The notes under the pieces were generated by a model. The model made no database searches. It was given only the letters and a program-made list of their open reading frames with translations, and was not told where the DNA came from. Below are positions 28,116 through 44,713 of a stretch of 64,000 nucleotides of DNA, piece by piece. The translations under genes were made by a program, and so were the position numbers. The stretch's first letter is position 1. Each line of letters starts with the position of its first letter. Location: positions 3,264,001 to 3,328,000 of the forward strand of contig OZ220089.1 in assembly GCA_964291625.2 (NCBI GenBank), given 5' to 3'. The DNA is from Candidatus Latescibacterota bacterium. Its GTDB lineage: Bacteria > Latescibacterota > UBA2968 > UBA8231.

Positions 28116-28150
28116 GACCCTCTCCTCGGGGGATGCGTTTGAAGTAATGC

Positions 28151-28834
28151 TCAGGCTTCCAGCTCTCGGAGGGCGGCGGCGCCGATGGGGACGATGCCGA
28201 ACTCGGCGCCCGCCTCCATGAGGATGTCCCAAACGTAGGCGCCCGGGGCGCGCCCGCCGAGGACGCGGTAGGCGGGCCGACCGCCGGCGTCGGCGCGGAC
28301 CACCAGGGCCTTGACGCGGGCGACGCTGGTCTCGCGGCAGCGGCGGTCCGGGAAGGCGTCGTCGTCGAAGTCCAGCCCGCAGAGCTTGCTCAGCAGCCGC
28401 GGGGCCTCCGGGCCGACGATGCGGTACTCGAAGCGGCCGTGGGTCACGTCGGTGACGGTCACCAGTCCGGTGGCTCCACCAGCGGCTTGCTCGATGGTCT
28501 TGAGGATTGCCGCTCCCTCGCCGGGGCCGGCGGCCATGAGCAGGAGGTCGGGCCGGAGGCCGCAGGCGGTCACCCGGCCCCCGCTCACCTCTCCCATTCC
28601 GGGGGCCGCCAGGCCGGTGGCCGCGGCGATCACCGCGCCGGCCTCCTCACCCTGCACGAGCAGCTTCGCCCGGGGCGTCTCGTCGCCGAGGGCCACCCCT
28701 TCCCGCGCCGCCCGCGCCTCGGCGGCGCCGTCGCCGAAGCGCTCGGGGAACTGCCACCCGTCGATCTCGGTCAGGTGCGCGCCCAGGGTCTCCCAGCGGC
28801 CGTGGAGGGGGGTCGCGTACCAGGGCCCGGCCAT
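28151..28834 (-). CDS. soxG: Sarcosine oxidase gamma / N-methylglutamate dehydrogenase MgdD-like subunit
   Basis: GcvT-like fold, VTDVTHG, LLSKLCGLDF; position in the BDAG operon. Confidence 0.78.
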   Translation of the reverse strand: MAGPWYATPLHGRWETLGAHLTEIDGWQFPERFGDGAAEARAAREGVALGDETPRAKLLVQGEEAGAVIAAATGLAAPGMGEVSGGRVTACGLRPDLLLMAAGPGEGAAILKTIEQAAGGATGLVTVTDVTHGRFEYRIVGPEAPRLLSKLCGLDFDDDAFPDRRCRETSVARVKALVVRADAGGRPAYRVLGGRAPGAYVWDILMEAGAEFGIVPIGAAALRELEA

Positions 28835-31761
28835 CAGCTGCGCAGCCTCTCGCCGGCGGGATCGTAGAACGCCCCGTGGTGCACCCGTCCCTCCTCCAGG
28901 CCTCCGCCGGAGTACACGGAGAAGGCGGCTCCCTCCTCCTCGGCGAGGTCGGCCGGCAGCCAGCACAGGCCGATGACGCCGCCGAGGGTTGGCGAGCGCC
29001 GGCAGGAGGTGATCCAGCCGATGATGTCGAAGCCGCCGCCGGAGCGGCGGGTGACGATCTGCAGGCCCTCCTCCACGACGGCGTCGTCGCGGCTCATGCG
29101 GAAGCCCGTGAGGCGCTGCTTCGGTCCGGTCTCCGCCACCCGGGTCAGGGCCCGCTTCCCGAGGAAGTCGGGCTTCTCCAGCTTGACGGCCCATCCGGAG
29201 TCGGCGGAGATGGCGTCGGAGAGGGCGTCCGTGTCCTGGCCGACGATCAGGTGGCCCTTCTCCAGTCGGAGGATGCGCTGGGCCTCGACGCCGAAGGGGC
29301 GGATGCCGTGGTCGGCCCCGGCCTCCATGAGCGCCTCCCACAGGTGCCGGCCGCCGCCGGCCGGGCCGTGGATCTCGTAGGACAGCTCGCCGGTGAAGCC
29401 GATGCGCAGGACCAGGCAGGAGAGGCCGGCGACCCGGGTGCGGCGGGCGCGCATGTAGGGGAACTTCGCCTTCGACAGGTCGCGGGAGGTGAGCTTCTGC
29501 AGCACCTCGCGGGAGGCGGGGCCGGCGAGGTTGACGGCGGCCCGGGCCTCGGTGAGGTCGGTGACGTGGACGCCGTCGCCCCAGCCCGACTGGCGCCACC
29601 ACTCGACCCACTCCAGGGCGCCGGCGGCGCCGGTGGAGGTGGTGCTCACGTACCAGTCGTCGTCGGCCAGGCGGGCGCAGACGCCGTCGTCGAGGACGAC
29701 CCCCTCGTCGTTGCACATCAAGCCGTAGCGCACCCGCCCCCGGCGCAGGTCCCGCCAGGAGTTGACGTAGAGGCGCTCCAGCAGGTCCGGCACCCCCGGC
29801 CCGGTGAGGCGCAGCTTGCCGAGGGGGCTCACGTCGATGAGGCCGACGGCGTTGCGCACCGCCGCCACCTCCTCGGCGGGGTCGCCGTAGCGCTCCGGCC
29901 GCAGCCAGGTGCCGGCGGTCATCATGCGGGCGCCGTGGGCCAGGTGCCAGTCGTGCATCGCCGAGACCTGCACCGGCTCCATCTTCTGGCCGGCGAGAGT
30001 CCCCAGGGAGAGCGGCGTCACGGGAGGCCGTGCCGTCGTCCGGCCCGTCTCCTGCACCGAGCGGCCGGTGCCGGCGGCGCACAGGCGGATCCCGTGGAGG
30101 TTGCACATGCGGCCCTGGCAGGGACCCATGCCGATGGTCGTGTATCGCTTGAGCAGCTCGAGGTGGTCGTACCCCTCGGCCAGGGAGGTGTCGATGTCGG
30201 TGTCGGTCACGTCCTCGCACAGGCAGACGAAGCGCTTGCCGCCGCCGCAGGCGGGAGCGCTGACCAGCGCCGAGGAGCGGGAGGCGGCGTCTTCGGGCGG
30301 GTCCGCGTCGGCCGCTCCGGGGTCCGCCGCCAAGGGGTGGGCGGCATCGGCCTCCGGGGCCTGCCCGGCCTCCGCTGTCCCCGAGCCCCGGGCGTGGGCC
30401 GCCGCGGCGGCGCCGGCCCGGCGGCCGTGCTCCTCCTCGGCCTCCAGCGGTCCCTGCAGGCCGGCGGCCCTCCCCGCCAGGAACACCCCCGCCGGCAGGT
30501 CGACCACCCGCATCTCGGCGCGCTCCTCGTCGTAGCGGCTGCCCGCTCCGGCCATCCAGGCGAGCTCCGCCGAGGGCTGCCGCCCGGTGCTGACGGCGAC
30601 GAGGTCGCAGCGCACCCGGCGCCTCGCGCCGGCGCCGGAGACCGGCACCAGCACCGCCGAGCGCACGCGGCGGCGGCCCCGGGCGGCGCCGATGGTGTAC
30701 CCGGTGAGCACCTCCGCCCCGGAGGCGGCCACCTCCGCGGCCCCGGGCGGCTCCGCCCCGGGCCGCTCGTCGGCCACGGCGGCGACCTCGACCCCGGCGG
30801 CCAGCAGGTCGGCGGCCACCTCCCAGCCGCCGTCGCCGGCGGTGACGACCACCGCCCTCCGGCCCGGGGCCACGCCGTGGAGGCGCAGCAGCCGCTGCAC
30901 CGCCGTGCCGAGCATGACCCCCGGCCGGTCGTTGCCGTCGAAGAGCGGCGGGATCTCGTGGCTGCCGGTGGCCACGACCACGGCGCGGGCGCGGATCTTG
31001 AACAAGCGGTGGCCGCACGCCGCCGACAGCCAGTGGTCCTGGTACCAGCCGGTCACCGAGGTCCCGGTGAGCACCTCCACGCCGGCCCGGGAGAGCCGCT
31101 GCGCGGCGTCGTCGAGATCGCCCCGGGGGGTGCCGCTGTAGCGCAGGTGCCCGCCGAGGCCGGGGTTCTCGTCGAGCAGCAGCACCCGGGCGCCGCTCTC
31201 GCGGGCGGCCAGGGCGGCGCCCTGGCCGGCGGGACCTCCCCCGGCGACGACCACGTCGGCGTGGAGGTACTGCTTGTCGTACTCCCCCTCCGGCGTCTGC
31301 TCGTCCACGGTGCCGAGGCCGGCGGCGGTGCGCAGCACCCGGTCGTAGAGGGGCCACAGCCGCCGCGGCCGGATGAAGGTCTTGTAGTAGAACCCCGCCG
31401 GCAGGAAGCGCGAGACCCGCTCCGTCAGGGCCATGAGGTCGAGCTTGAGCGACGGCCAGGCGTTCTGGGGCCGCACGTCCAGGCCTTCCTCCAGCGGCCG
31501 GGTGCAGGCCCGCACGTTCGGCTCGGTGCCGACCTGCACGAGGCAGTTGGGGCAGTGGCCGGCGCAGCACAGCAGGCCGCGGGGGCGGTGGTACTTGAAG
31601 GAGCGGCTGAAGAGGGAGACCCCGGCGGCGGCCAGGGCCGAGGCGATCGTGTCCCCGGCGCAGCCGCTGTACTCGCGGCCACCGAAGCGGAAGCGCAGGC
31701 TGCGCCCGCGGTCCAGAACCTCTCCCGGCCGCGGCTCGATGCGGTGCGAGGGCCCGCTCAT
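28834..31761 (-). CDS. soxA: Sarcosine oxidase alpha / MgdC-like subunit
   Basis: SRSFKYHRPRG, GGGPAG, CLCEDVT, KRYTTIGMGPCQG, TARPP, GcvT domain (DVSPLGK, RIGFTGELSYE, LRLEKG). Confidence 0.92.
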   Translation of the reverse strand: MSGPSHRIEPRPGEVLDRGRSLRFRFGGREYSGCAGDTIASALAAAGVSLFSRSFKYHRPRGLLCCAGHCPNCLVQVGTEPNVRACTRPLEEGLDVRPQNAWPSLKLDLMALTERVSRFLPAGFYYKTFIRPRRLWPLYDRVLRTAAGLGTVDEQTPEGEYDKQYLHADVVVAGGGPAGQGAALAARESGARVLLLDENPGLGGHLRYSGTPRGDLDDAAQRLSRAGVEVLTGTSVTGWYQDHWLSAACGHRLFKIRARAVVVATGSHEIPPLFDGNDRPGVMLGTAVQRLLRLHGVAPGRRAVVVTAGDGGWEVAADLLAAGVEVAAVADERPGAEPPGAAEVAASGAEVLTGYTIGAARGRRRVRSAVLVPVSGAGARRRVRCDLVAVSTGRQPSAELAWMAGAGSRYDEERAEMRVVDLPAGVFLAGRAAGLQGPLEAEEEHGRRAGAAAAAHARGSGTAEAGQAPEADAAHPLAADPGAADADPPEDAASRSSALVSAPACGGGKRFVCLCEDVTDTDIDTSLAEGYDHLELLKRYTTIGMGPCQGRMCNLHGIRLCAAGTGRSVQETGRTTARPPVTPLSLGTLAGQKMEPVQVSAMHDWHLAHGARMMTAGTWLRPERYGDPAEEVAAVRNAVGLIDVSPLGKLRLTGPGVPDLLERLYVNSWRDLRRGRVRYGLMCNDEGVVLDDGVCARLADDDWYVSTTSTGAAGALEWVEWWRQSGWGDGVHVTDLTEARAAVNLAGPASREVLQKLTSRDLSKAKFPYMRARRTRVAGLSCLVLRIGFTGELSYEIHGPAGGGRHLWEALMEAGADHGIRPFGVEAQRILRLEKGHLIVGQDTDALSDAISADSGWAVKLEKPDFLGKRALTRVAETGPKQRLTGFRMSRDDAVVEEGLQIVTRRSGGGFDIIGWITSCRRSPTLGGVIGLCWLPADLAEEEGAAFSVYSGGGLEEGRVHHGAFYDPAGERLRS

Positions 31762-31843
31762 GACCGGCCCTTCCGGACGCCGCTGCCGCGGCTGGAGGAG
31801 GTCGCCCAACCCACCCGGGTGCCGCCGGGGCGGCCGGAGCGGC

Positions 31844-32128
31844 TCATCCGGCGCCTTCGGCCGGCGCGCCGTCGGGGGACCACCGGAAGGTCCGGGAGAC
31901 GGCGTTCGTGCGGCGGTCGCGCTCGGCCAGGAACCACAGGCCGCAGCCGGCGCGGTGGATCCACCACTCGCGGCGGGGGCCCATGGGGTTGTCGCGCAGG
32001 TAGAGGTAGTCGTGCCACTCCTCGTCGCCCGCCGCCGTGGACGGGGAAGGCCGTGGACTGTACTCGCCGCCGTAGTGGAACTCGGAGACGTTGCGCTCGC
32101 CGCAGTGGGGGCAGGCCAGCAGCAGCAT
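31844..32128 (-). CDS. soxD: Sarcosine oxidase delta / MgdB-like subunit
   Basis: CPHCGER...EF.YGGE, YLYLRDNP.G, EWW.H..GC. Confidence 0.92.
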   Translation of the reverse strand: MLLLACPHCGERNVSEFHYGGEYSPRPSPSTAAGDEEWHDYLYLRDNPMGPRREWWIHRAGCGLWFLAERDRRTNAVSRTFRWSPDGAPAEGAG

Positions 32129-33360
32129 CAGTGGCCCACCGCGGCGGCGCCCTTCTCGCCCACGGGGTCGAACTCGGCGAAGCGGGAGAGGCGGAAGGGA
32201 TGGATGAGGTCGGGGGTGCGCCCCGTGGCGATCAGCTCGGCCAGGGTCTGGCCGCAGATGGGGGAGGCCTTGAAGCCGTAGGTGCCCCAGCCGGCGTCGA
32301 GGTAGAAGCCCTTCACCGGCGTGACCCCCATGAGGGGGCTGTAGTCGGGGGGCATCTCGCACAGCCCCGCCCACTGGCGCAGGATGCGGACCTGCGACAG
32401 GAAGGGGAAGAGCTCCAGCACGTGCCCCGAGAGGCCCTCGAGGAAGTCGAGGGAGCCGGCCGTGGAGTAGGAGGTGAAGGGATCGACGCTGGCGCCCATG
32501 ACCAGCTCGCCGCGGCCGGACTGGCTGATGTAGACGTGGAGGGAGCCGGAGACGACGACCACGTCGAGGAACGGCTTGAGGGGTTCGGTGACGCAGGCCT
32601 GGAGGGGGAAGGTGTCCAGGGGCAGGCGCAGGCCGGCCATGGCGGCCAGGTCGGAGGCCCAGCCGGCCGTGGCCGAGAGCACGGTCCCGGCCGCCACCGG
32701 CCCCCGGGTGGTCTGCACGCCGGTGACGCCGCCGGCGGCCACGTCGATGCCGGTGACCTCGGTGTACTGATGGATGTCGACGCCGCGCTCGTCGGCGCCG
32801 CGGGCGTACCCCCAGACGACGGCGTCGTGGCGGATGATCCCCCCCGGCGGATGGTAGAGGGCGGCGTGGATGGGGAAGCGGGGGCGGTCCGACAGGTCGA
32901 GCTGCGGGCAGATGCGGGCCAGCTCGTCGGGGAAGACGAGGCGGGAGTCGACGCCCTCCAGGCGGTTGACCTCGGCGCGGCGGCGCATGGTGCGCACCGA
33001 GCCGTCGTCGTGGGCCAGGGTGAGGTGGCCGCGGCGGCTGAACATGACGTTGAAATCGAGGTCTTCGGACAGGTCTTCGTAGAGATCGAGGCTGGCGTCG
33101 TAGAAGCGCACGCCCTCGGGGGTGAGGTAGTTGGAGCGCAGGATGGCGGTGTTTCGTCCCGAGCCCCCGGAGCCGATGTAGCTCTTCTCGAGGACGGCCA
33201 CGTCGGTGACGCCGTGGTCCCGGGCCAGGTAGTAGGCGCAGGCCAGTCCGTGGGCGCCGCCGCCGATGATGACGACGTCGTAGCGGTCCTTCAGGGGTCG
33301 GTCGTGCCACATGCGCCGGGGCCTGGCGCCCAGGCCGTGGCGCAGCAGCTTGAAGGGCAT
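32128..33360 (-). CDS. soxB: Sarcosine oxidase beta / MgdA-like FAD subunit
   Basis: IGGGAHGLA.AYYLA, GGSGRNTAILRSNY, RHDAVVWG, GWGTYGFKA, EKGAAAVGH. Confidence 0.93.
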   Translation of the reverse strand: MPFKLLRHGLGARPRRMWHDRPLKDRYDVVIIGGGAHGLACAYYLARDHGVTDVAVLEKSYIGSGGSGRNTAILRSNYLTPEGVRFYDASLDLYEDLSEDLDFNVMFSRRGHLTLAHDDGSVRTMRRRAEVNRLEGVDSRLVFPDELARICPQLDLSDRPRFPIHAALYHPPGGIIRHDAVVWGYARGADERGVDIHQYTEVTGIDVAAGGVTGVQTTRGPVAAGTVLSATAGWASDLAAMAGLRLPLDTFPLQACVTEPLKPFLDVVVVSGSLHVYISQSGRGELVMGASVDPFTSYSTAGSLDFLEGLSGHVLELFPFLSQVRILRQWAGLCEMPPDYSPLMGVTPVKGFYLDAGWGTYGFKASPICGQTLAELIATGRTPDLIHPFRLSRFAEFDPVGEKGAAAVGH

Positions 33361-33634
33361 ACGGTGGCGCTCCGGCGCGGAAGTCCACGGGAGAAGGGCG
33401 ATAAGATGGTGGGCCCACGGGGTGCCCGCCACCGGGGGCCGGTGGCCGGCCGCCGGACATCCTGCGCCGCGTCGGGACGCGTGGTCCGGGTTGCCGGCCC
33501 CACTTCCCTTGCGCAACATCAGCGACTTGGGCCTGCGCGCGCCGAAGTGCGATCGGCGAGAGAAATCACGGGAGACCGCGAAGCGCAGGCCCCAGGAGGC
33601 ACGTCGACGCCGCGCGCCTCCGGGAGACGCCGAG

Positions 33635-35650: not shown

Positions 35651-35661
35651 CCCCGCGGGAG

Positions 35662-36153: not shown

Positions 36154-36209
36154 GGATCGCCTCCCGATGGACGGCCGCGGCGCCGTCCGTTGAATGCGGA
36201 GAAATCAGA

Positions 36210-36238
36210 TTGCATTACATGACCGGGGCAAGTATACT
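36210..36238 (+). promoter_or_regulatory. Sigma70-type promoter of the regulator-mgs operon (likely leaderless mRNA)
   Basis: TTGCAT-17 nt-TATACT ending 7 nt before ATG 36246, which has no clear SD. Confidence 0.6.
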
Positions 36239-36245
36239 CCCGGGG

Positions 36246-36875
36246 ATGGCCGAGTCGAACCACAGGAACGCCGTCGCCGACCCGGCGACCACGGGGGCCC
36301 CGGAGAGCCGCCTGGAGCGTTCCATCGGCCGCCAGATCCGCACCTTCCGGCAGCAGCTGGACATGACCGCCGCCGACCTGTCGCGCGAGGCGGGCCTGTC
36401 GGCGGGGATGCTCTCCAAGATCGAGAACGGCCTGACCTCGCCCTCCCTGGCGACCCTGAGCGCCCTGGCGGGGGCCCTCAACGTCCCGGTGACCGCCCTC
36501 TTCCGCAAGTACGAGGAGGCCCGCGACGTCTCCTTCGTGCCCGCCGGCGCCGGTCTCGACATCGAGCGCCGGGGCACCCGCGCCGGCCACCAGTACCAGC
36601 TCCTCGGGCACACGGTGAGCCGGCGCATGTTCGTCGAGCCCTACCTCATCCACCTGACCGGCGAGTCGGACGTCTTCCCGGTCTTCCAGCACGGCGGCGT
36701 CGAGTTCATCTACATCCTCGAGGGGCGGATCACCTACCGCCACGGGGACCGCACCTGGGCCATGGGTCCGGGCGACTCCCTGTTCTTCGACGCCGAGGCC
36801 CCCCACGGGCCCGAGGAGCTCACCGAGCTGCCCATCCGCTTCCTGTCCATCCTGATCGAGCCGAGGGAGAGCTGA
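36246..36875 (+). CDS. XRE-family HTH plus cupin transcriptional regulator
   Basis: LSAGMLSKIENG.TSPSL HTH; FQH.GVEFIYILEG cupin; GDSLFFDA..PHGP. Confidence 0.92.
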   Translation: MAESNHRNAVADPATTGAPESRLERSIGRQIRTFRQQLDMTAADLSREAGLSAGMLSKIENGLTSPSLATLSALAGALNVPVTALFRKYEEARDVSFVPAGAGLDIERRGTRAGHQYQLLGHTVSRRMFVEPYLIHLTGESDVFPVFQHGGVEFIYILEGRITYRHGDRTWAMGPGDSLFFDAEAPHGPEELTELPIRFLSILIEPRES

Positions 36876-36876
36876 C

Positions 36877-37782
36877 ATGTGCGGCATCGCCGGAATCCTG
36901 TTCAAGCGCCCGCCGGAGCACCTGAGCGCCGGCCGGGCCCTGGTGGAGATGCTCGACGGCTGCCAGCACCGCGGCCCCGACTCCACCGGCTTCGCCCTCT
37001 ACGGCCGGGACGAGCCCGGCCGCCTGCGGCTGCGCTTCATCGTCGGCGAGGACGGCTGCGCCGAGGCGGCCTGCGCCCGCATCGCGGAGGTGCTGCACCG
37101 GGAGGGCGCCGCCGTGGTGAGCGAGGAGCGGGTCGGCGGCGACTACCGGGTCACCGTGGAGTTCGACGGCGACCTGCAGAGCTTCGCCTACGCCGTGGAG
37201 CACGCCGCCAAGGTCGTCTCCATCGGCTCGAGCCTGGAGATCGTCAAGGACGTGGGCGGCGCCCGCGACGTGGACGGCCGCTACGGCGTGCACGGCTTCG
37301 AGGGCAGCCACGGCCTCGGCCACGTGCGCCTGGCCACCGAGAGCGACGTCAAGCCCGAGGCCTCCCACCCCTTCTGGGCCACGGGCTTCGCCGACGTGGC
37401 GATCGTCCACAACGGCCAGATCACCAACTACTGGAAGATGCGCCGCCGCCTGGAGCAGCGCGGCTTCGAGTTCGCCACCGACAACGACTCGGAGCTGATC
37501 GCCGTCTACCTGGCGGACAAGCTCTCCCAGGGGGTGCCGCTCCAGGACGCCCTGCGCACCTCCATCGACGACCTGGACGGGACCTTCTCCTTCCTCGTGT
37601 CGACGAAGGACGAGATCGGCTACGCCAAGGACCGCATCGCCGCCAAGCCGATGATCATGTACGAGAACGAGGAGCTGGTGGCGGTCGCCTCGGAGGAGGT
37701 CTCCCTCAACCGCCTCTTCCCCGGCCAGGCCCTCGACACCCGCGAGCCCCCGCCGGGGACCTACGCCACGTGGTCCAGGTAG
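36877..37782 (+). CDS. mgsA: Class II glutamine amidotransferase, N-methylglutamate synthase subunit A (GlxB-like)
   Basis: N-terminal MCGIAG, HRGPDSTG, GHVRLATES, SHPF, VHNGQITNY, DNDSE. Confidence 0.88.
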   Translation: MCGIAGILFKRPPEHLSAGRALVEMLDGCQHRGPDSTGFALYGRDEPGRLRLRFIVGEDGCAEAACARIAEVLHREGAAVVSEERVGGDYRVTVEFDGDLQSFAYAVEHAAKVVSIGSSLEIVKDVGGARDVDGRYGVHGFEGSHGLGHVRLATESDVKPEASHPFWATGFADVAIVHNGQITNYWKMRRRLEQRGFEFATDNDSELIAVYLADKLSQGVPLQDALRTSIDDLDGTFSFLVSTKDEIGYAKDRIAAKPMIMYENEELVAVASEEVSLNRLFPGQALDTREPPPGTYATWSR

Positions 37783-39695
37783 ATCTCGCCCGGGTCCCGG
37801 TCCGCCAGGCCAACGAGCGCATCCGCGCCCACGGCGAGGCCGGCGAGGACGTGGAGGTCCTCAACCCCGACGCCCGACACCACATCGGCGTCGGCCTCAC
37901 CTCGCCGATCCGCGTGCGGGTGCGGGGGTCGGCGGGATACTTCTGCGCCGGCCTCTCCGACCAGGCCCGCTTCGAGGTCGACAACAACGTCGGCTGGGGG
38001 CTGGCCGACAACATGTACACCGGGTCGGTGGTAGTCCGCGGCAACGCCGGCGCCATCGCCGGGGTCGCCGTCCGCGGCGCCGAGGTCGTGGTCCACGGCA
38101 ACCTCGGCTCCCGCGCCGGACAGGTGATGAAGGCCGGCACCCTGTGCTGCGCCGGCAACGCCAACTTCATGGCCGGCTACATGATGTACGGGGGGCGCAT
38201 CATCCTCCTCGGCGACTCGGGGGAGCGCGTCGGCGAGGACATGACGGGGGGCGAGATCTTCGTGGGGGGCCAGGTCCGCGACCTCGGCAGCGACGCCGAG
38301 CTGACCGACCTGGACGACGGCGACGACGATGGCGTGCGCGAGTTCCTCGACCGCTGGGAGATCCCCTTCCGCGGGTCGCTGCGGAAGATCGTCAACGCCG
38401 GCACGAAGCTGCGCTACGCCACCGAGGAGCCCCAGGTGCGCAGCATTCCCTTCTTCACCTACTCGCGGGACTCGGAGTACTGGAACCCCAAGGTGCAGGA
38501 GGACGTGCACGTCAAGTCGCGCATCGGCCGCTACCGGATCCGCGGCTACGGGGCGGCGCGGCCCCTGCCGCACCTGGCGGACCTCGGCTTCCGCGCCGAC
38601 CTGGGCGCCGCCGGCCGGGCGGAGGACGTGGTCTCCCGGGTCCAGATGCGCACCGAGATCGGCGGCCTCAACGGCGCCGAGCCCCTGAAGCTGAGCATGC
38701 CGGTCATGATCGCGCCCATGAGCTACGGCGCCATCAGCCGCTCGACGAAGCAGGCCGTGGCCATGGCCTCGGCCATGTCCGACATCGCCGAGAACACCGG
38801 CGAGGGCGGCATGAGCGACGCCCAGAGGGACGCGGCCAAGCAGTTGATCTTCCAGTGCCTGGGGGGCCGCCTGGGCTGGAACATCCACGACATGAAGCGC
38901 GCCGACGGCCTGGAGATCTACATCTCCCAGGGGGCCAAGCCCGGCCTCGGCGGCCAGCTGATGGCCAAGAAGGTGACGCCGGAGCTGGCGGCGATCCGCG
39001 GCATCCCGGCGGGCATCGACCTGCGCTCGCCGTCGCGCCACCCGGACATCCTCGGCGCCGACGACCTGGTGATCAAGATCGAGGAGTTCCGCGAGGCCAC
39101 GGGCTACCGCAAGCCGGTGAGCGTCAAGCTCGGCGCCGGGCGGGTGCGCGACGACATCAAGATCGCCGTCAAGGACGGCTTCGACTTCGTCGAGCTCGAC
39201 GGCATGCAGGGGGCCACCGGCGCCGGCAGCGGCGAGGTCATCGACCACGTGGGCATCCCCACCCTGCCGGCGATCATCGAGGCCCTGGAGGCGCTCGAGG
39301 AGATCGGCCGCCGCCAGGACATCGAGGTCGTCCTCATGGGCGGCCTGCGGGACGGCATCGACGCGGTGAAGGCCCTCTGCCTCGGGGCGGACGCCGCCGC
39401 CTTCGGCACCTCGGTGCTCATCGCCGGCGGCTGCATCGCCTGCATGCAGTGCCACGTGGGCCAGTGCGTCACCGGCATCGCCACCCAGGACCCGGAGCAC
39501 GAGAAGCGCTACGAGCCGGCCGTGGAGGCGCGCAACATCCACCGCTTCCTGGAGACCGTGCGCTGGCAGATCGCGGCCCTGACCCACGCCATGGGCTACT
39601 CCAGCACCCGCGAGCTGAACCGCGGCGACCTCGTGGCCCTGACGCCGGAGGCCGCCGAGATCACCGGCCTGCCGCTGGCGCCCGGACCGGGCTGA
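37770..39695 (+). CDS. Fused MgsB (GXGXG beta-helix) - MgsC (FMN glutamate-synthase barrel)
   Basis: N-terminal GSAGYFCAG, GNAG, MKAG and GGEIFVGG repeats; then APMSYGA, NTGEGGM, SQGAKPGLGG, LRSPSRHPD, DGMQGATGA, CIACMQCHVGQC. Confidence 0.88.
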   Translation: MVQVDLARVPVRQANERIRAHGEAGEDVEVLNPDARHHIGVGLTSPIRVRVRGSAGYFCAGLSDQARFEVDNNVGWGLADNMYTGSVVVRGNAGAIAGVAVRGAEVVVHGNLGSRAGQVMKAGTLCCAGNANFMAGYMMYGGRIILLGDSGERVGEDMTGGEIFVGGQVRDLGSDAELTDLDDGDDDGVREFLDRWEIPFRGSLRKIVNAGTKLRYATEEPQVRSIPFFTYSRDSEYWNPKVQEDVHVKSRIGRYRIRGYGAARPLPHLADLGFRADLGAAGRAEDVVSRVQMRTEIGGLNGAEPLKLSMPVMIAPMSYGAISRSTKQAVAMASAMSDIAENTGEGGMSDAQRDAAKQLIFQCLGGRLGWNIHDMKRADGLEIYISQGAKPGLGGQLMAKKVTPELAAIRGIPAGIDLRSPSRHPDILGADDLVIKIEEFREATGYRKPVSVKLGAGRVRDDIKIAVKDGFDFVELDGMQGATGAGSGEVIDHVGIPTLPAIIEALEALEEIGRRQDIEVVLMGGLRDGIDAVKALCLGADAAAFGTSVLIAGGCIACMQCHVGQCVTGIATQDPEHEKRYEPAVEARNIHRFLETVRWQIAALTHAMGYSSTRELNRGDLVALTPEAAEITGLPLAPGPG

Positions 39696-39699
39696 CCCC

Positions 39700-42237
39700 A
39701 TGGCCGTCTACGATCTGCTGCGCATCGAGATGCCGGACGCGCCGCCCGGCTTCGCCGACGACACCGGCGACCTCCACTACGTGCCGGCCCCCTGCCAGGT
39801 CGCCTGTCCCGTGGGCACCGACGCGGCCTCCTACATCGGCCTGATCTGGGAGGGGAAGTACGAGGAGGCCTTCGAGGCGATCACGGCGACCAACCCCTTC
39901 AGCTCGATCTGCGGCCGCGTCTGCGACGCCCCCTGCGAGCCCGCCTGCCGGCGCACCGACTCGGACGGCCCGATACAGATCCGCAACCTCAAGCGCTTCG
40001 TCATGGACCGCATCGGCCACCGCTGCGACCCGCCGCCGGTGCCGGTGACGAAGAAGGAAACGGTCGGCATCGTCGGCGCCGGCCCGGCGGGGCTGACCGC
40101 GGCCCACGACCTCGGCGAGGCCGGGTACGCCGTGCACGTCTACGAGATGACGGACCGCCTCGGCGGCATGATGGTCTGGGGGATCCCGGCCTTCCGCCTG
40201 CCGCCGGGGATCATCGACGAGGACATCACGCGCCTGACGCGGCGTTGCCCCGGCCTCGAGGTGCACCTGAACACCGGCCTCGGCCGCGACATCAGCCTGG
40301 CGGAGCTGAAGGAGCGCCACGACGCCGTGCTGCTGGCCATCGGCGCCTGGTGGGGCAAGCCGATGGGGATCCCCGGCGAGGAGCACGAGGGCGTGATCGA
40401 CGGCGTCGGCTGGCTGCGCGAGATCAACGCCGGGGCGCGGCCCCGGCTCCCCAAGAAAGTGGTCGTCGTCGGCGGCGGCGACGTGGCCATGGACGCCTGC
40501 CGCGTCGCCCGGCGGCTGCCCGGCTGCGAGCACGTGCAGGTCCTCTACCGCCGCGGGCCGGAGGAGATCCCGGCGCGCCCCATCGAGCTGGAGGGGGCGA
40601 TCGCCGAGGGCATCGAGTTCGTCTACCACACCCAGCCGGTGGCCGTCGAGCCCCGGGGCGACGGACTCGCCCTCAGGTGCGTGCGCACCGAGCTCGGCGA
40701 GCCCGAGGCCGACGGCCGCCGCCGCCCCGTCAACGTGGCGGGCAGCGAGCACGACTTCGAGTGCGGCCTGGTGATCGCGTCGGTGGGGCAGAAGGGGGTC
40801 TGCGACGAGCTCGACGAGCTGGGCATGATGCGCCCCGACCGCATCGACGCCGACTTCGAGAGCATGCGCACCACCGACCCCAAGGTCTTCGCCGCCGGCG
40901 ACGGCGCCTTCGGCGGCTCGACGATCGTCATCGCCATGCACCACGGGCAGAAGGCCGCCTACTACGTGCGCAACTTCCTCGAGGGCCACGACGAGCCCCT
41001 GCCCTACCGCACCCCCTACCGCACGCGGCGCGTGGAGGTGGCCCAGGACGCCCTGTGGGAGCGGCTGGCCCTGCAGCACCCGGAGTTCCACGGCCTCGGC
41101 CGCGAGCCGGTGACCTTCCCCGAGATCGAGAGCACCTACGACCCGGAGTCGGCCCACAAGGAGGCGGCGCGCTGCTACCGCTGCGACGCCGAGACCGGCA
41201 CCCCCGACTACAGCGTGCAGCACCGCGAGGACCTGTTCTCCATGGCGCGGATGGAGAAGGGCGAGTCCGACAAGCAGCAGGCGATGCTGCGGCGCCGCCT
41301 GGCGCCCCGGGACAACCCCTTCCCCGAGCAGCGGCCGCCGCAGCTGGAGGACCTGGTCTTCCTGCCGGCGAACCTGTCGCGCCTGGTGATCGACCCCTAC
41401 CGCGAGGCCTGCCGCGTCGGCTGCGATCTCGGCGGCTCCCTGGAGCTGGCCCACCCGCTGATGGTCACCGGCTTCGACGGGGCGCCCCGCCAGGTGAAGG
41501 AGGCGGTCGCCACCGGGCTGGCCGAGGCGGAGGCCGTCTACGTGGGGGCGCAGCCCCTGTCCCGGGAGACGGCGGTCACCTGGCTCCAGGTGCTCGGCGA
41601 GGACGGCGCGGAGCCGCGGGCGGAGGCGGCGGGGCTGCTGCGGTTGGTCTCCGGCACCGGGGAGGCGCGACTGCCCGAGCGCTTGCGCGAGGAACAGGTC
41701 ACGGGTCTGGTGGTCTCGCGGCGGGAGCACCTGGAGGCGGCGGTTTCCGCCGCCCTCGAGCAGGACCAGTCCCTGCTGCTGCTCAACGGCCAGGGTCCCG
41801 CGTGGCCCGCCAACGGCTGGGCGGAGCTGGCCGGGGCGCCCGACCTGCGGCTGCTGCGGGATGCCGTGCGCCTGCTGCGGGAACACCGCCGCGAGGGCGA
41901 CGTGGACCTCGTCCACTTCGGCGGGGTCCGCTCCGGCACGGATGCGGCCAAGCTCATCGGCCTGGGCGCCGCGGCCATGGTGATGGGCGTCTCGGCGGGA
42001 CTGGCGGCCGGCGGTCACATTCGGGGCCCGGAGCTGGCCTTCGACGCCGACCTCGGCGCCGAGGAGCGCGCCTCCGCGGTGGCCAACCTGGTCCGCGCCA
42101 ACTGCAGCGAGGCGTCGATGATGGCGCGCTGCTGCGGCAAGACGGTGCTCCACAACATCGAGCCCGAGGACCTGCGGGCCCTGACCCTGGCCACCAGCGA
42201 CAGCACGGGGATTCCGCTGGCGGGGCAGCGGGGGTGA
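39700..42237 (+). CDS. GltD-like Fe-S/FAD NAD(P)H oxidoreductase fused to a degenerate glutamate-synthase FMN domain
   Basis: CQVACP, NPFSSICGRVC..PCE..C, GAGPAG, GIPAFRLP, GGGDVAMD, YRR, FAAGD, EAARCYRC; then LVFLPANLSRLVIDPYRE and GGVRSGTDAAKLIGLGA. Confidence 0.85.
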   Translation: MAVYDLLRIEMPDAPPGFADDTGDLHYVPAPCQVACPVGTDAASYIGLIWEGKYEEAFEAITATNPFSSICGRVCDAPCEPACRRTDSDGPIQIRNLKRFVMDRIGHRCDPPPVPVTKKETVGIVGAGPAGLTAAHDLGEAGYAVHVYEMTDRLGGMMVWGIPAFRLPPGIIDEDITRLTRRCPGLEVHLNTGLGRDISLAELKERHDAVLLAIGAWWGKPMGIPGEEHEGVIDGVGWLREINAGARPRLPKKVVVVGGGDVAMDACRVARRLPGCEHVQVLYRRGPEEIPARPIELEGAIAEGIEFVYHTQPVAVEPRGDGLALRCVRTELGEPEADGRRRPVNVAGSEHDFECGLVIASVGQKGVCDELDELGMMRPDRIDADFESMRTTDPKVFAAGDGAFGGSTIVIAMHHGQKAAYYVRNFLEGHDEPLPYRTPYRTRRVEVAQDALWERLALQHPEFHGLGREPVTFPEIESTYDPESAHKEAARCYRCDAETGTPDYSVQHREDLFSMARMEKGESDKQQAMLRRRLAPRDNPFPEQRPPQLEDLVFLPANLSRLVIDPYREACRVGCDLGGSLELAHPLMVTGFDGAPRQVKEAVATGLAEAEAVYVGAQPLSRETAVTWLQVLGEDGAEPRAEAAGLLRLVSGTGEARLPERLREEQVTGLVVSRREHLEAAVSAALEQDQSLLLLNGQGPAWPANGWAELAGAPDLRLLRDAVRLLREHRREGDVDLVHFGGVRSGTDAAKLIGLGAAAMVMGVSAGLAAGGHIRGPELAFDADLGAEERASAVANLVRANCSEASMMARCCGKTVLHNIEPEDLRALTLATSDSTGIPLAGQRG

Positions 42238-42395
42238 GCTGACCCAACGTCGGTCTGATGTCCGTATATTCGCTTACCGCTTGCACTTGACAGTCAGCCG
42301 TGTCTGTCATGGCGAACCCAGTGCGTGGTCAGGTCCCTTCAACGCTGCCGTGACTGCTTCGAACCCCAATAGTCCGGAGCGAGGATTGGTTCCAG

Positions 42396-43679: not shown

Positions 43680-43682
43680 GCG

Positions 43683-44318: not shown

Positions 44319-44453
44319 TCGAACCAAGTCTCTGTCGATCCATGGGATTGCCCCGATCTGAGTGCCGCCTGGGGCGAGGGCTGTCAATTCAGACGGAGTG
44401 TGTCTCCGGAGGACCGCGAGCTTGACTGGCCCAGGGCGGACGACTGGTCCGAG

Positions 44454-44670: not shown

Positions 44671-44713
44671 TGAGACTCCAGCGGGGGGCGCGGGGATACG
44701 GTACGGCCGCAGG

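What the first reader, a model, noticed from the sequence alone, without database searches (positions are those of the whole stretch)
36877..42237. N-methylglutamate synthase operon with an extra NAD(P)H-input subunit: a possible 'methylamine GOGAT'
Seen: mgsA, fused mgsB-mgsC and a GltD-like flavoprotein are tightly packed in one operon (13-nt overlap and 4-nt gap). Known: characterised MgsABC is described without a dedicated GltD subunit, and GltD supplies NADPH electrons in glutamate synthase. Inference: MgsA may release methylamine from GmaS-made gamma-glutamylmethylamide, and MgsC may reductively aminate 2-oxoglutarate with electrons from this subunit. That would be a GS/GOGAT-like cycle producing N-methylglutamate.
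Basis: partly seen in the sequence, partly recalled or inferred. Interest (0 to 1): 0.85.

Follow-up and report, generated by a model that had tools for sequence, protein, structure and literature searches.

The report
GOGAT-style N-methylglutamate synthase gene module
A tightly packed three-gene unit looks like a methylamine-handling version of glutamate synthase with its own NAD(P)H-type electron-input subunit; it is conserved across several bacterial phyla and could settle how this step of methylamine use is powered.

Summary
Genes for a class-II amidotransferase (36877-37782), a fused GXGXG+FMN protein (37770-39695) and a GltD-like protein (39700-42237) lie with a 13-nt overlap and a 4-nt gap. 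A PuuR-like regulator sits one base upstream.

New points:
- The 845-aa third protein is GltD-like only to about residue 500. It ends in a degenerate MgsC-like barrel.
- The unit is a conserved module. Gene order held in 56 of 56 loci with enough upstream flank, across Proteobacteria, Planctomycetota and Latescibacterota, the window's own phylum.
- Its FMN domain keeps the three iron-sulfur cysteine positions of GltB. Three alphaproteobacterial MgsC lack them.
- The neighbouring GS is GmaS-type.
- In the window's family, all 21 module-bearing genomes have GmaS and mgdA-like genes, and none has a canonical MgsC. Congeners carry canonical mgsABC-gmaS beside the same mgd orthologues.

Against simple equivalence, 20 of 25 other genomes hold both the module and MgsC-like genes.

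Best reading (0.55): an NAD(P)H-driven N-methylglutamate synthase. No biochemistry exists for it, and the GS/GOGAT analogy itself is already in print. It is a new variant of a known kind.

The parts
26781..28232 (-). GmaS-type (type III GS family) gamma-glutamyl-alkylamide synthetase. The true start is probably some 40 codons inside this ORF.
   Evidence: Pfam Gln-synt_C 1e-106. TIGR03105 scores 597 bits against a cut-off of 469.6. The best solved relatives are 7cql RhGmaS (6e-131) and 9qur 'glutamate--methylamine ligase' (4e-123), against 1.8e-82 or weaker for true GS. Of the 14 GmaS marker residues named in PMC7948447, 13 are kept and Q175 is Ala.
28151..28828 (-). mgdD/soxG-like gamma subunit
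   Evidence: Pfam GCV_T 4.1e-24 and SoxG 1.1e-3. TIGR01375 scores 57 bits, below its cut-off.
28834..31809 (-). mgdC/soxA-like alpha subunit with a folate-binding GCV_T domain
   Evidence: Pfam GCV_T 3.5e-74, Fer2_4, SO_alpha_A3 and Pyr_redox_2. TIGR01372 scores 829 bits, below its cut-off of 1164. It is 41% identical to the SoxA-like protein of the A. caldus NMG cluster.
31844..32125 (-). mgdB/soxD-like delta subunit
   Evidence: Pfam SoxD 3.6e-30.
32128..33480 (-). mgdA/soxB-like beta subunit
   Evidence: Pfam DAO 1e-72. TIGR01373 scores 488 bits, below its cut-off of 529. It is 49% identical to the SoxB-like protein of a Rhizobium NMG cluster. Orthologues of 74-96% identity occur in all 20 other module-bearing genomes of the family.
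36210..36875 (+). XRE-HTH plus cupin regulator (PuuR-like architecture). Its stop codon lies one base before the amidotransferase ATG.
   Evidence: Pfam HTH_3 2.8e-14 and Cupin_2 3.9e-13. It is 55% and 48% identical to the HTH regulators inside the Rhizobium and Methylobacterium NMG clusters. Orthologues of 59-68% identity lie beside the module in 16 of 80 loci.
36877..37782 (+). Class-II (Ntn, GlxB/MgsA-type) amidotransferase of 301 aa with an N-terminal Cys
   Evidence: The protein begins MCGIAG. Pfam GATase_6/7. It is 61-80% identical across 80 loci and 32-39% identical to canonical MgsA.
37770..39695 (+). Fused GXGXG beta-helix (MgsB-like) plus FMN barrel (MgsC/GltB synthase-like), 641 aa. 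It carries the loop C555-x2-C558-x2-C561-x4-C566 and the motif GAKPGLGG.
   Evidence: Pfam hits. The fusion is present in 65 of 66 loci. The Cys motif is present in 69 of 70 module ORFs and GAKPG[L/F]GG in 68 of 70. The cysteines align with positions 1102, 1108 and 1113 of 1ea0_A.
39700..41300 (+). GltD/NfnB-like N-terminal part of the 845-aa protein. It has the Fer4_20 cysteines, an FAD site (GAGPAGL) and a second dinucleotide site (GGGDVAMD).
   Evidence: Pfam and NCBIfam hits. Cysteines 32, 36, 71, 75, 79, 83, 492 and 495 are invariant. Foldseek finds NfnABC 9bov_A at 39% identity (1.6e-34) and GltD 6s6s_E at 33%.
41317..42237 (+). C-terminal degenerate MgsC-like TIM barrel of the same protein. 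It keeps GGVRSGTDAAKL and EASMMARCxGKTxLHNxEPEDL. It lacks the QGAKPGxGG and SPxRHPD segments and the Cys loop.
   Evidence: Alignment. BLASTP gives 32-33% identity to three alphaproteobacterial MgsC and 27% to A. caldus MgsC, E down to 1e-18. hhalign against the BC profile gives probability 98.4%, E 6.9e-15. The AF2 domain model has pLDDT 75 and pTM 0.73. Foldseek finds FMN-type barrels at TM 0.43-0.52. It is predicted to dock on the BC protein with ipSAE 0.80 against a best control of 0.00.

Best explanation
The regulator gene plus three structural genes encode a variant N-methylglutamate (NMG) synthase built like a complete glutamate synthase.

Proposed steps (all inferred):
- GmaS makes gamma-glutamylmethylamide (GMA) from methylamine, glutamate and ATP.
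- The Ntn amidotransferase, through its N-terminal Cys, releases methylamine from GMA.
- Methylamine passes to the FMN barrel of the fused GXGXG-FMN protein, where it condenses with 2-oxoglutarate.
- The N-methyl-iminoglutarate is reduced by FMNH2.
- FMN is re-reduced by the 845-aa subunit. Electrons pass from NAD(P)H to FAD, through two [4Fe-4S] clusters, to the iron-sulfur cluster held by the Cys loop of the FMN domain.
- The degenerate C-terminal barrel of that subunit docks on the catalytic barrel, probably as a structural or active-site-capping element.
- The mgdABCD-like dehydrogenase then turns NMG into glutamate plus methylene-tetrahydrofolate.

The net effect is that methylamine nitrogen ends up in glutamate without free ammonium. 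This parallels GS/GOGAT.

Shown here:
- Gene anatomy and domain content.
- Conservation of the cofactor-binding motifs.
- Conserved synteny.
- GmaS-type character of the GS.
- The genome-level pattern of partners.

Inferred: substrates, product, direction, nucleotide specificity, cofactor content and the physical complex.
For: Anatomy:
- All GOGAT cofactor modules are present. The amidotransferase starts MCG. The remaining domains are GXGXG plus Glu_synthase, and Fer4_20 plus Pyr_redox_2.
- C555, C561 and C566 of the FMN domain align with positions 1102, 1108 and 1113 of A. brasilense GltB chain 1ea0_A. I recall these positions as the [3Fe-4S] ligands. The motif is kept in 69 of 70 module ORFs.
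- The MgsC of P. aminophilus, Methylobacterium sp. DM1 and R. ruizarguesonis have no Cys in that loop.

Linkage of the electron-input subunit:
- It is preceded by the amidotransferase and BC genes in 56 of 56 loci.
- A 1486-aa natural protein, P0125, fuses BC (62% identity) to the GltD-long protein (45% identity).
- The predicted complex of BC with the C-terminal barrel scores ipSAE 0.80, 0.81 and 0.80. The best of 3 controls scores 0.00. Partner pLDDT is 87-88 and the runs share at least 90% of contacts. The tool's calibration for this mark is 58 of 80 solved complexes reaching it, against 2 of 110 mismatched pairs.

Methylamine rather than ammonium:
- The GS reaches TIGR03105 and is nearest to two solved GmaS enzymes.
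- It has Trp at the Glu-flap position and Ala at the Asp50' position, as PMC7948447 describes for GmaS.
- The Glu of GAKPGEGG, present in the five solved GOGAT large-chain sequences matched (four alignments shown) and in the genome's own GltB, is Leu or Phe in 68 of 70 modules. It is Gly in 4 of 4 canonical MgsC.
- The regulator is 48-55% identical to regulators of canonical NMG clusters.
- The genome has a separate GltB in an ORF of 1580 aa.

Natural swap:
- In family f1, 21 genomes carry the module. All 21 have TIGR03105 over its cut-off and all 21 have a SoxB orthologue of at least 74% identity. None of the 21 has a 40-44% MgsC-like gene, whereas 40 of the other 55 genomes do.
- In congeners G159 and G162, and in G158, the orthologous soxB (82-85%), soxA (65-67%) and soxG genes are followed directly by canonical mgsA, mgsB, mgsC (77-82% identical to the three alphaproteobacterial MgsC) and gmaS.

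Wider sample:
- 25 of 25 module-bearing genomes of other phyla have TIGR03105 over its cut-off, against 1 of 14 control genomes.
- Amt-family transporters recur beside the module in 16 of 80 loci.
Against: - There is no biochemical or genetic datum for any member of this module.
- Locally the link to the pathway is a minority pattern. Of 39 loci with wide flanks, 12 have a gmaS-like gene, 6 have soxB-like and 5 have soxA-like.
- In 20 of 25 proteobacterial or planctomycete genomes the module coexists with one or more MgsC-like genes of 40-45% identity. In 5 of these the extra gene lies beside the GmaS gene, Aestuariivirga litoralis among them. The module is therefore not simply a replacement and may do something else there.
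- Cys-bearing MgsC without any GltD gene exist, in the A. caldus cluster and in G150. The Cys loop alone does not prove a GltD partner.
- The GltD-like half scores below the curated glutamate-synthase small-subunit cut-offs (TIGR01317 200 against 448; TIGR01318 255 against 483). It is somewhat nearer to NfnB-type proteins.
- As recalled, classical NMG synthase is a redox-neutral FMN enzyme that needs no external reductant.
- The full-length AF2 model is of low confidence (pLDDT 65, pTM 0.44).
- The complex score rests on my own alignments.
- P0125 is one predicted metagenomic protein and could be a calling or assembly artefact.
Confidence: 0.55

Rival explanations
1. The module works in a gamma-glutamylation pathway, but on another small amine (ethylamine, other alkylamines or hydroxyalkylamines) or on a broad range of them. 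It would make N-alkylglutamates rather than specifically NMG.
For: - RhGmaS accepts ethylamine, propylamine, hydroxylamine and others in vitro (PMC7948447, passages).
- The window's GS has Ala where RhGmaS has Q175, a residue of the amine pocket.
- In many proteobacterial genomes the module coexists with MgsC-like genes (20 of 25). In loci L003, L028, L033 and L077 it sits beside a second amidotransferase/GXGXG set (L028 and L077 with an MgsC-like FMN gene; L003 and L033 with a different GS-like gene). This would fit two synthases with different substrates.
- The motif residue varies between Leu (43) and Phe (25).
Against: - The partner dehydrogenase carries folate-binding GCV_T domains suited to a one-carbon group.
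- The same mgd orthologues pair with canonical mgsABC in congeners.
- Q175 is kept in most module-associated GS, so Q175A is a lineage trait and not a feature of the module.
Confidence: 0.13
2. It is a redox-neutral NMG synthase like the classical enzyme (glutamate + methylamine -> NMG + NH4+). The GltD-long protein would be accessory. It might keep FMN or the iron-sulfur cluster reduced, act as a scaffold through its pseudo-barrel, or link the enzyme to another redox partner, without stoichiometric NAD(P)H use.
For: - The classical enzyme needs no external reductant (recalled, not read here).
- Expression of Methylobacterium mgsABC alone in P. putida gave NMG (PMC6237917, passages).
- The part of the 845-aa protein predicted to touch the catalytic loop is the degenerate barrel. 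A contact by the GltD half was not tested.
Against: - Conserving a full FAD, dinucleotide-site and two-cluster module at 55-75% identity across phyla, with eight invariant cysteines, is expensive for a scaffold.
- The GltB-spaced Cys triad is present exactly where GltB receives electrons.
Confidence: 0.12
3. The complex runs in the oxidative direction, or as a different redox enzyme. One option is an NAD(P)+-linked oxidation of NMG or glutamate. Another is an Nfn-like electron-transfer or bifurcating role for the GltD-like half.
For: - The best structural matches of the N-terminal half are NfnABC and Stn-type bifurcating enzymes at 39-40% identity, ahead of GltD at 33%.
- The glutamate synthase half-reactions are reversible in principle (general knowledge).
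Against: - A separate four-subunit NMG dehydrogenase is present in every module-bearing genome of the family (21 of 21).
- An amidotransferase subunit with its catalytic Cys is always attached (56 of 56 loci). That makes sense only for a synthase direction.
Confidence: 0.08
4. It is a genuine second glutamate synthase (glutamine + 2-oxoglutarate + NAD(P)H -> 2 glutamate) of split architecture. It would work with a type III GS and Amt transporters as an alternative ammonium-assimilation system.
For: - The GOGAT domain set is complete.
- The GltB Cys triad and the residues aligning with Q969, K972, Q978, R992 and E903 of 1llw are kept.
- Amt-family genes are frequent neighbours (16 of 80 loci).
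- Sources name relatives 'glutamate synthase'.
Against: - The partner GS lacks the ammonium-binding Asp50' and the Glu-flap Glu, and is nearest to solved GmaS.
- The motif Glu of all solved GOGATs is Leu or Phe here.
- Every genome of the family examined but one (G096, 85% complete) already has a GltB of about 1500-1600 aa.
- The regulator and dehydrogenase partners are those of NMG clusters.
- The module and canonical MgsC are mutually exclusive in the family.
Confidence: 0.07

Closest known systems
Canonical N-methylglutamate synthase MgsABC (GlxBCD-type) of the NMG pathway, as in Methylobacterium, Methyloversatilis and Paracoccus aminophilus
   Same: - Both have the same three domain kinds: a GlxB-type Ntn amidotransferase starting MCG, a GXGXG protein and an FMN-binding Glu_synthase barrel.
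- Both have the same partners: GmaS-type GS, four-subunit Sox-like dehydrogenase and XRE-type regulator.
- In the window's family the two are mutually exclusive beside orthologous mgd genes.
   Different: - Identity is only 32-43%.
- B and C are fused (65 of 66 loci).
- The FMN domain has a GltB-spaced Cys loop that three alphaproteobacterial MgsC lack.
- The motif is GAKPG[L/F]GG instead of GAKPGGGG.
- An 845-aa GltD-like protein with a pseudo-MgsC barrel is always attached, whereas 0 of 4 canonical clusters have one.
NADPH-dependent glutamate synthase GltBD (solved examples 1ea0, 2vdc, 6s6s, 7mfm)
   Same: - The full set of cofactor modules and the presumed electron path are shared.
- The Cys positions 1102, 1108 and 1113 of 1ea0_A are kept.
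- Residues aligning with Q969, K972, Q978, R992 and E903 of 1llw are kept, and an acidic residue stands at E1013.
- The GltD fold is present.
   Different: - The enzyme is split over three genes.
- No Glu_syn_central domain was detected.
- The amidotransferase has 301 aa rather than about 420.
- The motif Glu is replaced by Leu or Phe.
- The small subunit carries an extra barrel and falls below the curated GltD cut-offs.
- The partner GS is GmaS-type.
- The housekeeping GltB is encoded elsewhere.
Dihydropyrimidine dehydrogenase and the NfnB/GltD-family flavoproteins
   Same: - DPD also joins a GltD-like module (two [4Fe-4S], FAD, NADPH) to an FMN-type TIM barrel on one chain. It aligns over about 1000 columns.
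- NfnABC and Stn subunits are the best structural matches of the N-terminal half (39-40% identity).
   Different: - The barrel here is of the Glu_synthase/MgsC lineage, not the dihydroorotate-dehydrogenase lineage.
- It has lost its catalytic-loop motifs.
- DPD identity is only 16-17% with a poor rmsd.
- There is no evidence here for bifurcation.
Cys-bearing MgsC-like proteins without a GltD gene (A. caldus plasmid cluster; G150; the second sets in L028 and L077)
   Same: They have the FMN barrel with a CxxCxxxxC segment and NMG-type neighbours: GS, Sox-like genes and folD.
   Different: - They have a long insertion inside the Cys loop.
- The B and C genes are separate.
- The motif is GAKPGGGG, GAKPGTGG or CKVGLGG.
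- There is no linked GltD-like gene, and their electron donor, if any, is unknown.

Membership tests
N-methylglutamate synthase (MgsABC/GlxBCD type) | GlxB-type class-II amidotransferase with an N-terminal catalytic Cys | tested here: met
   The protein begins MCGIAG. Pfam gives GATase_6/7. It is 32-39% identical to four MgsA over the full length.
N-methylglutamate synthase (MgsABC/GlxBCD type) | GXGXG (GlxC/MgsB) and FMN-binding Glu_synthase (GlxD/MgsC) components | tested here: met
   PF01493 1.3e-12 and PF01645 2e-93 lie on one 641-aa protein. It is 28-35% identical to MgsB and 39-43% identical to MgsC.
N-methylglutamate synthase (MgsABC/GlxBCD type) | Occurs with gmaS and mgdABCD | tested here: met
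   They are adjacent in the window. At genome level, 21 of 21 (family f1) and 25 of 25 (other phyla) module-bearing genomes have TIGR03105 over its cut-off, and 21 of 21 have a SoxB orthologue. Locally only 12 of 39 loci have a gmaS-like gene within about 10 kb.
N-methylglutamate synthase (MgsABC/GlxBCD type) | Three separate subunits and no dedicated pyridine-nucleotide subunit | tested here: not met
   B and C are fused in 65 of 66 loci. The GltD-like gene follows in 56 of 56 loci. None of 4 canonical clusters has such a gene.
N-methylglutamate synthase (MgsABC/GlxBCD type) | Catalyses NMG formation from methylamine or GMA | not testable with these tools
   This needs an enzyme assay or genetics.
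NADPH-glutamate synthase (GltBD) | [3Fe-4S] cysteine triad in the FMN domain | tested here: met
   C555, C561 and C566 align with positions 1102, 1108 and 1113 of 1ea0_A. Their role as ligands is recalled, not checked in a paper. The motif is kept in 69 of 70 module ORFs.
NADPH-glutamate synthase (GltBD) | Large subunit with the central domain (PF04898) and a long amidotransferase domain | tested here: not met
   No PF04898 hit on any of the three proteins at E up to 0.01. The amidotransferase has 301 aa. The extra barrel resembles generic FMN barrels. GltB is not among the roughly 45 Foldseek rows shown.
NADPH-glutamate synthase (GltBD) | GAKPGEGG motif with its Glu | tested here: not met
   The Glu is present in 7mfm, 1llw, 2vdc/1ea0 and the genome's own GltB. 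The window has Leu, and the modules have Leu in 43 and Phe in 25 of 70.
NADPH-glutamate synthase (GltBD) | GltD small subunit by curated model | tested here: inconclusive
   TIGR01317 scores 200 bits against a cut-off of 448. TIGR01318 scores 255 against 483. NF009410 'NAD(P)-binding protein' scores 400 against 516. The fold match to GltD 6s6s_E has E 2.3e-25.
Gamma-glutamylmethylamide synthetase (GmaS) | GS fold lacking the ammonium-binding Asp50' and the Glu-flap Glu, with D177, E186 and R312 conserved (PMC7948447) | tested here: met
   In the alignment to 7cql_A the positions A48', W300, D177, E179, E186, N188, W189, Y191, Y147, Y174, R312, R317 and K30' are identical. Q175 is Ala (with passages).
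NMG dehydrogenase / heterotetrameric sarcosine-oxidase family | Four genes in beta-delta-alpha-gamma order with a folate-binding alpha subunit | tested here: met
   The Pfam hits are DAO, SoxD, Fer2_4 with SO_alpha_A3 and GCV_T, and GCV_T/SoxG. The proteins fall below the curated soxA and soxB cut-offs, so they are not filed as true sarcosine oxidase.

The most novel reading that the evidence does not exclude
The module is a true 'methylamine GOGAT'. It would be a four-cofactor, NAD(P)H-dependent gamma-glutamylmethylamide:2-oxoglutarate N-methylaminotransferase, in which a degenerate copy of MgsC fused to a GltD/NfnB-type reductase caps the catalytic barrel. Together with GmaS it would form a second GS/GOGAT-type cycle that puts methylamine nitrogen straight into glutamate. 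In the many genomes that also keep a canonical NMG synthase, the two enzymes would divide the work much as GOGAT and glutamate dehydrogenase do for ammonium. The module would scavenge nitrogen at the cost of reductant. The canonical enzyme would be redox-neutral and release ammonium.
Probability: 0.35. Interest if true: 0.8.

Novelty: new variant of a known kind. Interest (0 to 1): 0.65.

Why it matters
**Open question.** The NMG pathway is a main route of methylamine use. According to the abstract of PMC7948447, gmaS occurs in about 23% of surface-ocean microbial genomes. Yet the passages I read state that the redox cofactor of NMG synthase is unknown and that the topology of the pathway still awaits enzymology (PMC6237917; PMC5023235). 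No NMG synthase appears among solved structures when searched by sequence.

**What this module offers.** It is a conserved form of the enzyme that carries its own electron-input subunit. That makes the question directly testable, because one defined complex can be assayed for NAD(P)H use with GMA, methylamine, glutamine or ammonium.

**Consequences if the reading holds:**
- It changes the nitrogen and reductant budget assumed for methylamine use in marine Alpha- and Gammaproteobacteria, Planctomycetota and Latescibacterota.
- It shows that gene surveys counting only mgsABC miss or mislabel this form. Sources currently name it 'glutamate synthase' or 'FAD-dependent oxidoreductase'.
- It gives a route to N-alkylated amino acids driven by NAD(P)H.

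Tried and rejected
- **Dimethylamine monooxygenase DmmA.** I considered this identity for the GltD-like protein and rejected it. The Dmm subunits are small (36 and 24 kDa are named in the passage read), and the gene is always tied to the amidotransferase/BC pair.
- **C-terminal barrel as a stand-in for the GltB central domain.** This is not supported. There is no PF04898 hit. Foldseek returned generic FMN barrels at TM 0.43-0.52, with no GltB among the rows shown.
- **Q175Ala in the GS as a hallmark of module-associated GS.** Rejected. Most module-associated GS keep Gln.
- **First neighbourhood scan.** One search used an out-of-frame FMN query by my mistake. I repeated it in frame, and only the latter is used for identities.
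- **Plasmid search for the long protein.** None of the 164 matching records covers 80% or more of it.
- **Promoter and terminator scan of 35600-42600.** It found one promoter-like and one terminator-like site, at or near shuffle expectation and in uninformative places.
- **Earlier notes of this scan.** Nothing was found by place or by sequence.
- **Expression.** Contigs from two RNA-library runs (X18, X20) lie on parts of the cluster at 90-99% identity, including one across the amidotransferase/BC junction. The tool warns that such contigs do not show transcription. The thin or absent cover at 42.7-44.5 kb in X18, X20 and X5 proves nothing by itself.
- **Full-length AF2 model of the 845-aa protein.** Confidence was too low (pLDDT 65, pTM 0.44) to read domain packing.
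- **Class-I amidotransferase at 50300-51004.** It is only 33% identical to the class-I amidotransferase that recurs beside the module elsewhere, so I do not count it as part of the system.
- **Literature.** Five searches found no paper that describes a GltD-like subunit with mgs genes or the names mgsD or mgsABCD. This holds only for the held library.

Full report
**1. What is in the sequence**

The window has about 72% G+C. Frame analysis and translation give four co-directional genes with almost no spacing.

| Coordinates | Product | Key features |
|---|---|---|
| 36210-36875 | XRE-HTH plus cupin regulator | TGA stop one base before the next ATG |
| 36877-37782 | Class-II amidotransferase, 301 aa | Begins MCGIAG |
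| 37770-39695 | Fused GXGXG + FMN protein, 641 aa | GTG start; 13-nt overlap with the previous gene; PF01493 and PF01645 |
| 39700-42237 | GltD-like protein, 845 aa | ATG after a 4-nt gap; Fer4_20 and Pyr_redox_2 in its first ~500 residues |

Upstream on the other strand lie:
- a GS-family gene (26781-28232);
- four Sox-like genes in beta-delta-alpha-gamma order (28151-33480).

A metallophosphoesterase gene and a hexapeptide acetyltransferase gene separate this block from the operon. Directly downstream lies a 60% G+C island with an AbiLi/AbiLii-like pair. The genome has a separate full-length GltB in an ORF of 1580 aa, 0.9 Mb away.

**2. The third protein is more than GltD**

Twenty homologues align at 64-78% identity over the full 845 residues. 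Invariant blocks lie well beyond the GltD part.

The C-terminal 300 or so residues are homologous to the MgsC/Glu_synthase barrel:
- BLASTP gives 32-33% identity to three alphaproteobacterial MgsC and 27% to A. caldus MgsC, with E down to 1e-18.
- Profile-profile comparison against the module's own FMN domain gives probability 98.4% and E 6.9e-15.

The alignment shows what this domain keeps and what it has lost.
- Kept: the N-terminal LPANLSRLVIDPYREAC block, the phosphate-type loop GGVRSGTDAAKL, and the C-terminal EASMMARCxGKTxLHNxEPEDL block.
- Lost: the QGAKPGxGG and SPxRHPD segments and the Cys loop.

A domain model (pLDDT 75, pTM 0.73) resembles FMN-type TIM barrels at TM 0.43-0.52. I read it as a degenerate, probably non-catalytic barrel. 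Whether it still binds FMN is open.

The N-terminal half has these features:
- eight invariant cysteines (32, 36, 71, 75, 79, 83, 492, 495);
- an FAD-type GxGxxG site and a second GGGDVAMD site;
- best structural matches to NfnABC/Stn subunits (39-40% identity), then GltD (33%).

**3. A conserved module, not a local accident**

The protein search listed 120 clusters. Apart from two records that their source labels partial (816 and 823 aa), they are 833-869 aa long, and all are 63-97% identical. They come from sources labelled Gammaproteobacteria, Alphaproteobacteria, Planctomycetaceae and others.

In those 80 loci:
- The amidotransferase and the BC gene precede the long gene in 56 of 56 loci with at least 3.5 kb of upstream flank.
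- B and C are fused in 65 of the 66 loci that hold both domains.
- Identities to the window are 61-80% (amidotransferase), 64-86% (FMN domain), 55-75% (GltD part) and 38-64% (C-terminal barrel).

Canonical mgsA, mgsB and mgsC of four annotated clusters are only 32-43% identical, are separate genes, and have no GltD gene nearby. The four are P. aminophilus pAMI6, Methylobacterium sp. DM1, A. caldus and R. ruizarguesonis. No plasmid record holds the long protein (0 of 164).

A profile of the C-terminal barrel found 114 representatives at E of 1e-30 or better in the 50%-identity library, many of them fragments. One of them, P0125 (1486 aa), is a single chain. Its residues 1-639 match the BC protein at 62% identity and residues 655-1481 match the long protein at 45%.

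**4. Evidence that the long protein feeds electrons to the FMN domain**

The FMN domain carries G-C-I-A-C-M-Q-C-H-V-G-Q-C. In the alignments to solved glutamate synthases, C555, C561 and C566 fall on chain positions 1102, 1108 and 1113 of A. brasilense GltB (1ea0_A). I recall these positions as the [3Fe-4S] ligands, but I did not read the paper here. A fourth Cys (C558) sits at the position of V1105.

The motif is present in 69 of 70 module ORFs. The three alphaproteobacterial MgsC have no Cys in this loop. The A. caldus MgsC and some others have a Cys segment interrupted by a long insertion, so the loop alone is not diagnostic.

A complex prediction of the BC protein with residues 520-845 of the long protein gave:
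- ipSAE of 0.80, 0.81 and 0.80, against 0.00 for the best of three controls;
- partner pLDDT of 87-88, with the runs sharing at least 90% of contacts.

The tool states that this mark was reached by 58 of 80 solved complexes and by 2 of 110 mismatched pairs, and that these counts hold only roughly because I supplied my own alignments.

The predicted interface uses the partner's most conserved blocks (552-565, 742-751, 793-813, 826-845). It touches BC residues 385-393 (the ISQGAKPGL loop), 422-433, 493-507 and 624-633. This supports binding but does not show it. The contact of the GltD half with the FMN domain was not tested.

**5. Evidence for methylamine rather than ammonium**

*The GS is GmaS-type.*
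- It reaches TIGR03105 (597 bits against a cut-off of 469.6).
- It is closest to two solved GmaS entries (7cql, 6e-131; 9qur 'glutamate--methylamine ligase', 4e-123), against 1.8e-82 or weaker for true GS.
- PMC7948447 (passages) reports that in GmaS the Glu-flap Glu is Trp300 and Asp50' is Ala48'. It also reports that D177, E186 and R312 are catalytic.
- In the printed alignment the window's protein has W, A, D, E and R at these places and keeps eight further named residues. Q175 is Ala.
- That last change is a lineage trait and not general to module-associated GS.

*The synthase site departs from GltB at one motif position.*
- The five solved GOGAT large-chain sequences matched (four alignments shown) and the genome's own GltB read GAKPGEGG.
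- The module reads GAKPGLGG (43) or GAKPGFGG (25) in 68 of 70 ORFs.
- Four canonical MgsC read GAKPGGGG.
- Residues aligning with Q969, K972, Q978, R992 and E903 of 1llw are kept. Their roles are recalled, not checked.

*The regulator is shared with canonical NMG clusters.* It is 55% and 48% identical to the HTH regulators inside the Rhizobium and Methylobacterium clusters.

**6. Phylogenetic pattern**

Matching a contig length to a titled record places the window's family in Candidatus Latescibacterota. It is therefore not an actinobacterium, despite the high G+C.

In the 168 genomes of that phylum, the C-terminal barrel is found full-length in 21 genomes, all of the window's family. For those 21:

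| Feature | Count |
|---|---|
| TIGR03105 over its cut-off | 21 of 21 (87 of 168 in the phylum overall) |
| SoxB orthologue of 74-100% identity | 21 of 21 (four matches contain a stop) |
| MgsC-like gene of 40-44% identity | 0 of 21 (40 of the other 55 family genomes have one) |

- Within the window's own genus, six genomes have the module and four have canonical mgsC.
- In G159, G162 and G158, the orthologous soxB (82-85%), soxA (65-67%) and soxG genes are followed directly by mgsA, mgsB, mgsC (77-82% identical to the three alphaproteobacterial MgsC) and gmaS.
- In other genera that carry the module, the sox genes and the GmaS gene sit together at one locus, and the regulator plus module sit at another.

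So the same dehydrogenase and GmaS-type partners go with one synthase form or the other. This is the strongest argument that the module does the NMG synthase job. These genomes are kin, so the counts are not independent events.

**7. Results that cut the other way**

- Among 39 loci with wide flanks, only 12 have a gmaS-like gene, 10 the regulator, 6 soxB-like and 5 soxA-like genes within about 10 kb.
- I took 25 genomes of other phyla, 23 of them chosen because no GS gene lay in the fetched locus. All 25 have TIGR03105 over its cut-off, against 1 of 14 control genomes.
- However, 20 of those 25 also have one to three further MgsC-like genes of 40-45% identity. Five of these lie next to the GmaS gene, including in the cultured Aestuariivirga litoralis.
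- Four loci (L003, L028, L033, L077) hold a second amidotransferase/GXGXG set (L028 and L077 with an FMN gene as well) beside the module.

The two forms therefore coexist widely outside the window's family. Either they divide labour or the module has a related but different substrate.

Recurrent neighbours are Amt-family transporters (16 loci), ABC ATPases (23), class-I amidotransferases (8) and GlxA-type regulators (6).

**8. Comparison with what is in print**

PMC6237917 (passages) already draws GmaS/NMGS as a GS/GOGAT-like pair. [quoted passage not shown] NADH, NADPH or reduced ferredoxin are possible candidates)'.

PMC5023235 (passages) says GMA has been proposed as the NMGS substrate and that the topology awaits enzymology.

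What I did not find in five searches is any description of a dedicated GltD-like subunit, of the B-C fusion, or of the pseudo-barrel. The library is partial and supplements were closed.

**9. Occurrence and expression**

Near-identical or closely related sequence stands in runs labelled sponge metagenome from five studies: P3, P4, P5, P10 and P11. The best holder, X1, may be the source and is left out.

I laid runs of two of those studies.
- X5 (DNA?) has contigs of 90-99% identity across the cluster.
- X18 and X20 (RNA libraries) have contigs of the same identity range across the cluster. One of these contigs spans 37426-38182, across the amidotransferase/BC junction.

This does not show transcription.

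**10. Verdict**

The most likely reading is an NAD(P)H-driven, GOGAT-architecture NMG synthase (confidence 0.55). The rivals are another amine substrate (0.13), an accessory role for the reductase (0.12), the reverse direction or an Nfn-like role (0.08), and a true glutamine GOGAT (0.07). It is a new variant of a known kind, and a direct handle on an open enzymological question.

Noticed in passing
window 42396-44318 (+), within the 60% G+C stretch 42181-44820: An AAA_21 ATPase (PADLOC AbiLi, 3.5e-91) and an RloB-like protein (AbiLii, 3.6e-26) form an AbiL-type defence pair in a low-G+C island right after the operon. Of the four runs laid, only X1 has appreciable cover there. The island may therefore be strain-specific.
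   Followed up: partly
L110 (G162), L111 (G159), L113 (G158): The canonical MgsC of these Latescibacterota genomes is 77-82% identical to MgsC of Rhizobium, Methylobacterium and Paracoccus, and their GmaS is 59-68% identical. This is far above what the phylum distance would suggest. It points to horizontal transfer of the canonical operon.
   Followed up: no
L108 (A. caldus plasmid), L114 (G150), L028 1592-3139, L077 913-3387: There is a third kind of MgsC-like barrel. It has a Cys segment split by a long insertion and reads GAKPGGGG, GAKPGTGG or CKVGLGG. No GltD-like gene lies beside it, and its redox partner, if any, is unknown. In L028 and L077 it sits about 6 kb upstream of the module, with an Amt-family gene between them in L028 (not located in L077).
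   Followed up: partly
protein P0125 (1486 aa, metagenomic representative): A single-chain fusion of the BC protein and the GltD-long protein. P0132 (1031 aa) may be another long form. Neither was checked for assembly or gene-calling artefacts.
   Followed up: partly
G171 (genome behind L011), C1:1148827-1150008 and C1:1192662-1193843: Two matches to the module's FMN domain with identical score (75% identity) lie 44 kb apart. This suggests a recent duplication of the module.
   Followed up: no
window 33600-35650 (+) and 35662-36153 (-): A metallophosphoesterase gene and a hexapeptide-repeat acetyltransferase gene sit between the mgd-like genes and the operon. Congener loci carry them as well (metallophosphoesterase in G167, acetyltransferase in G166), but none of the 80 distant loci does.
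   Followed up: no
window 25700-26799 (+): An N6/N4 DNA methylase gene (PF01555, 2.7e-35) abuts the GmaS gene.
   Followed up: no
window 18515-21300 (-) and 44714-46765 (-): Two large proteins end in FlgD Ig-like domains. One also has a glucose/sorbosone dehydrogenase-like domain and the other DUF2330. They are possibly secreted or surface proteins.
   Followed up: no
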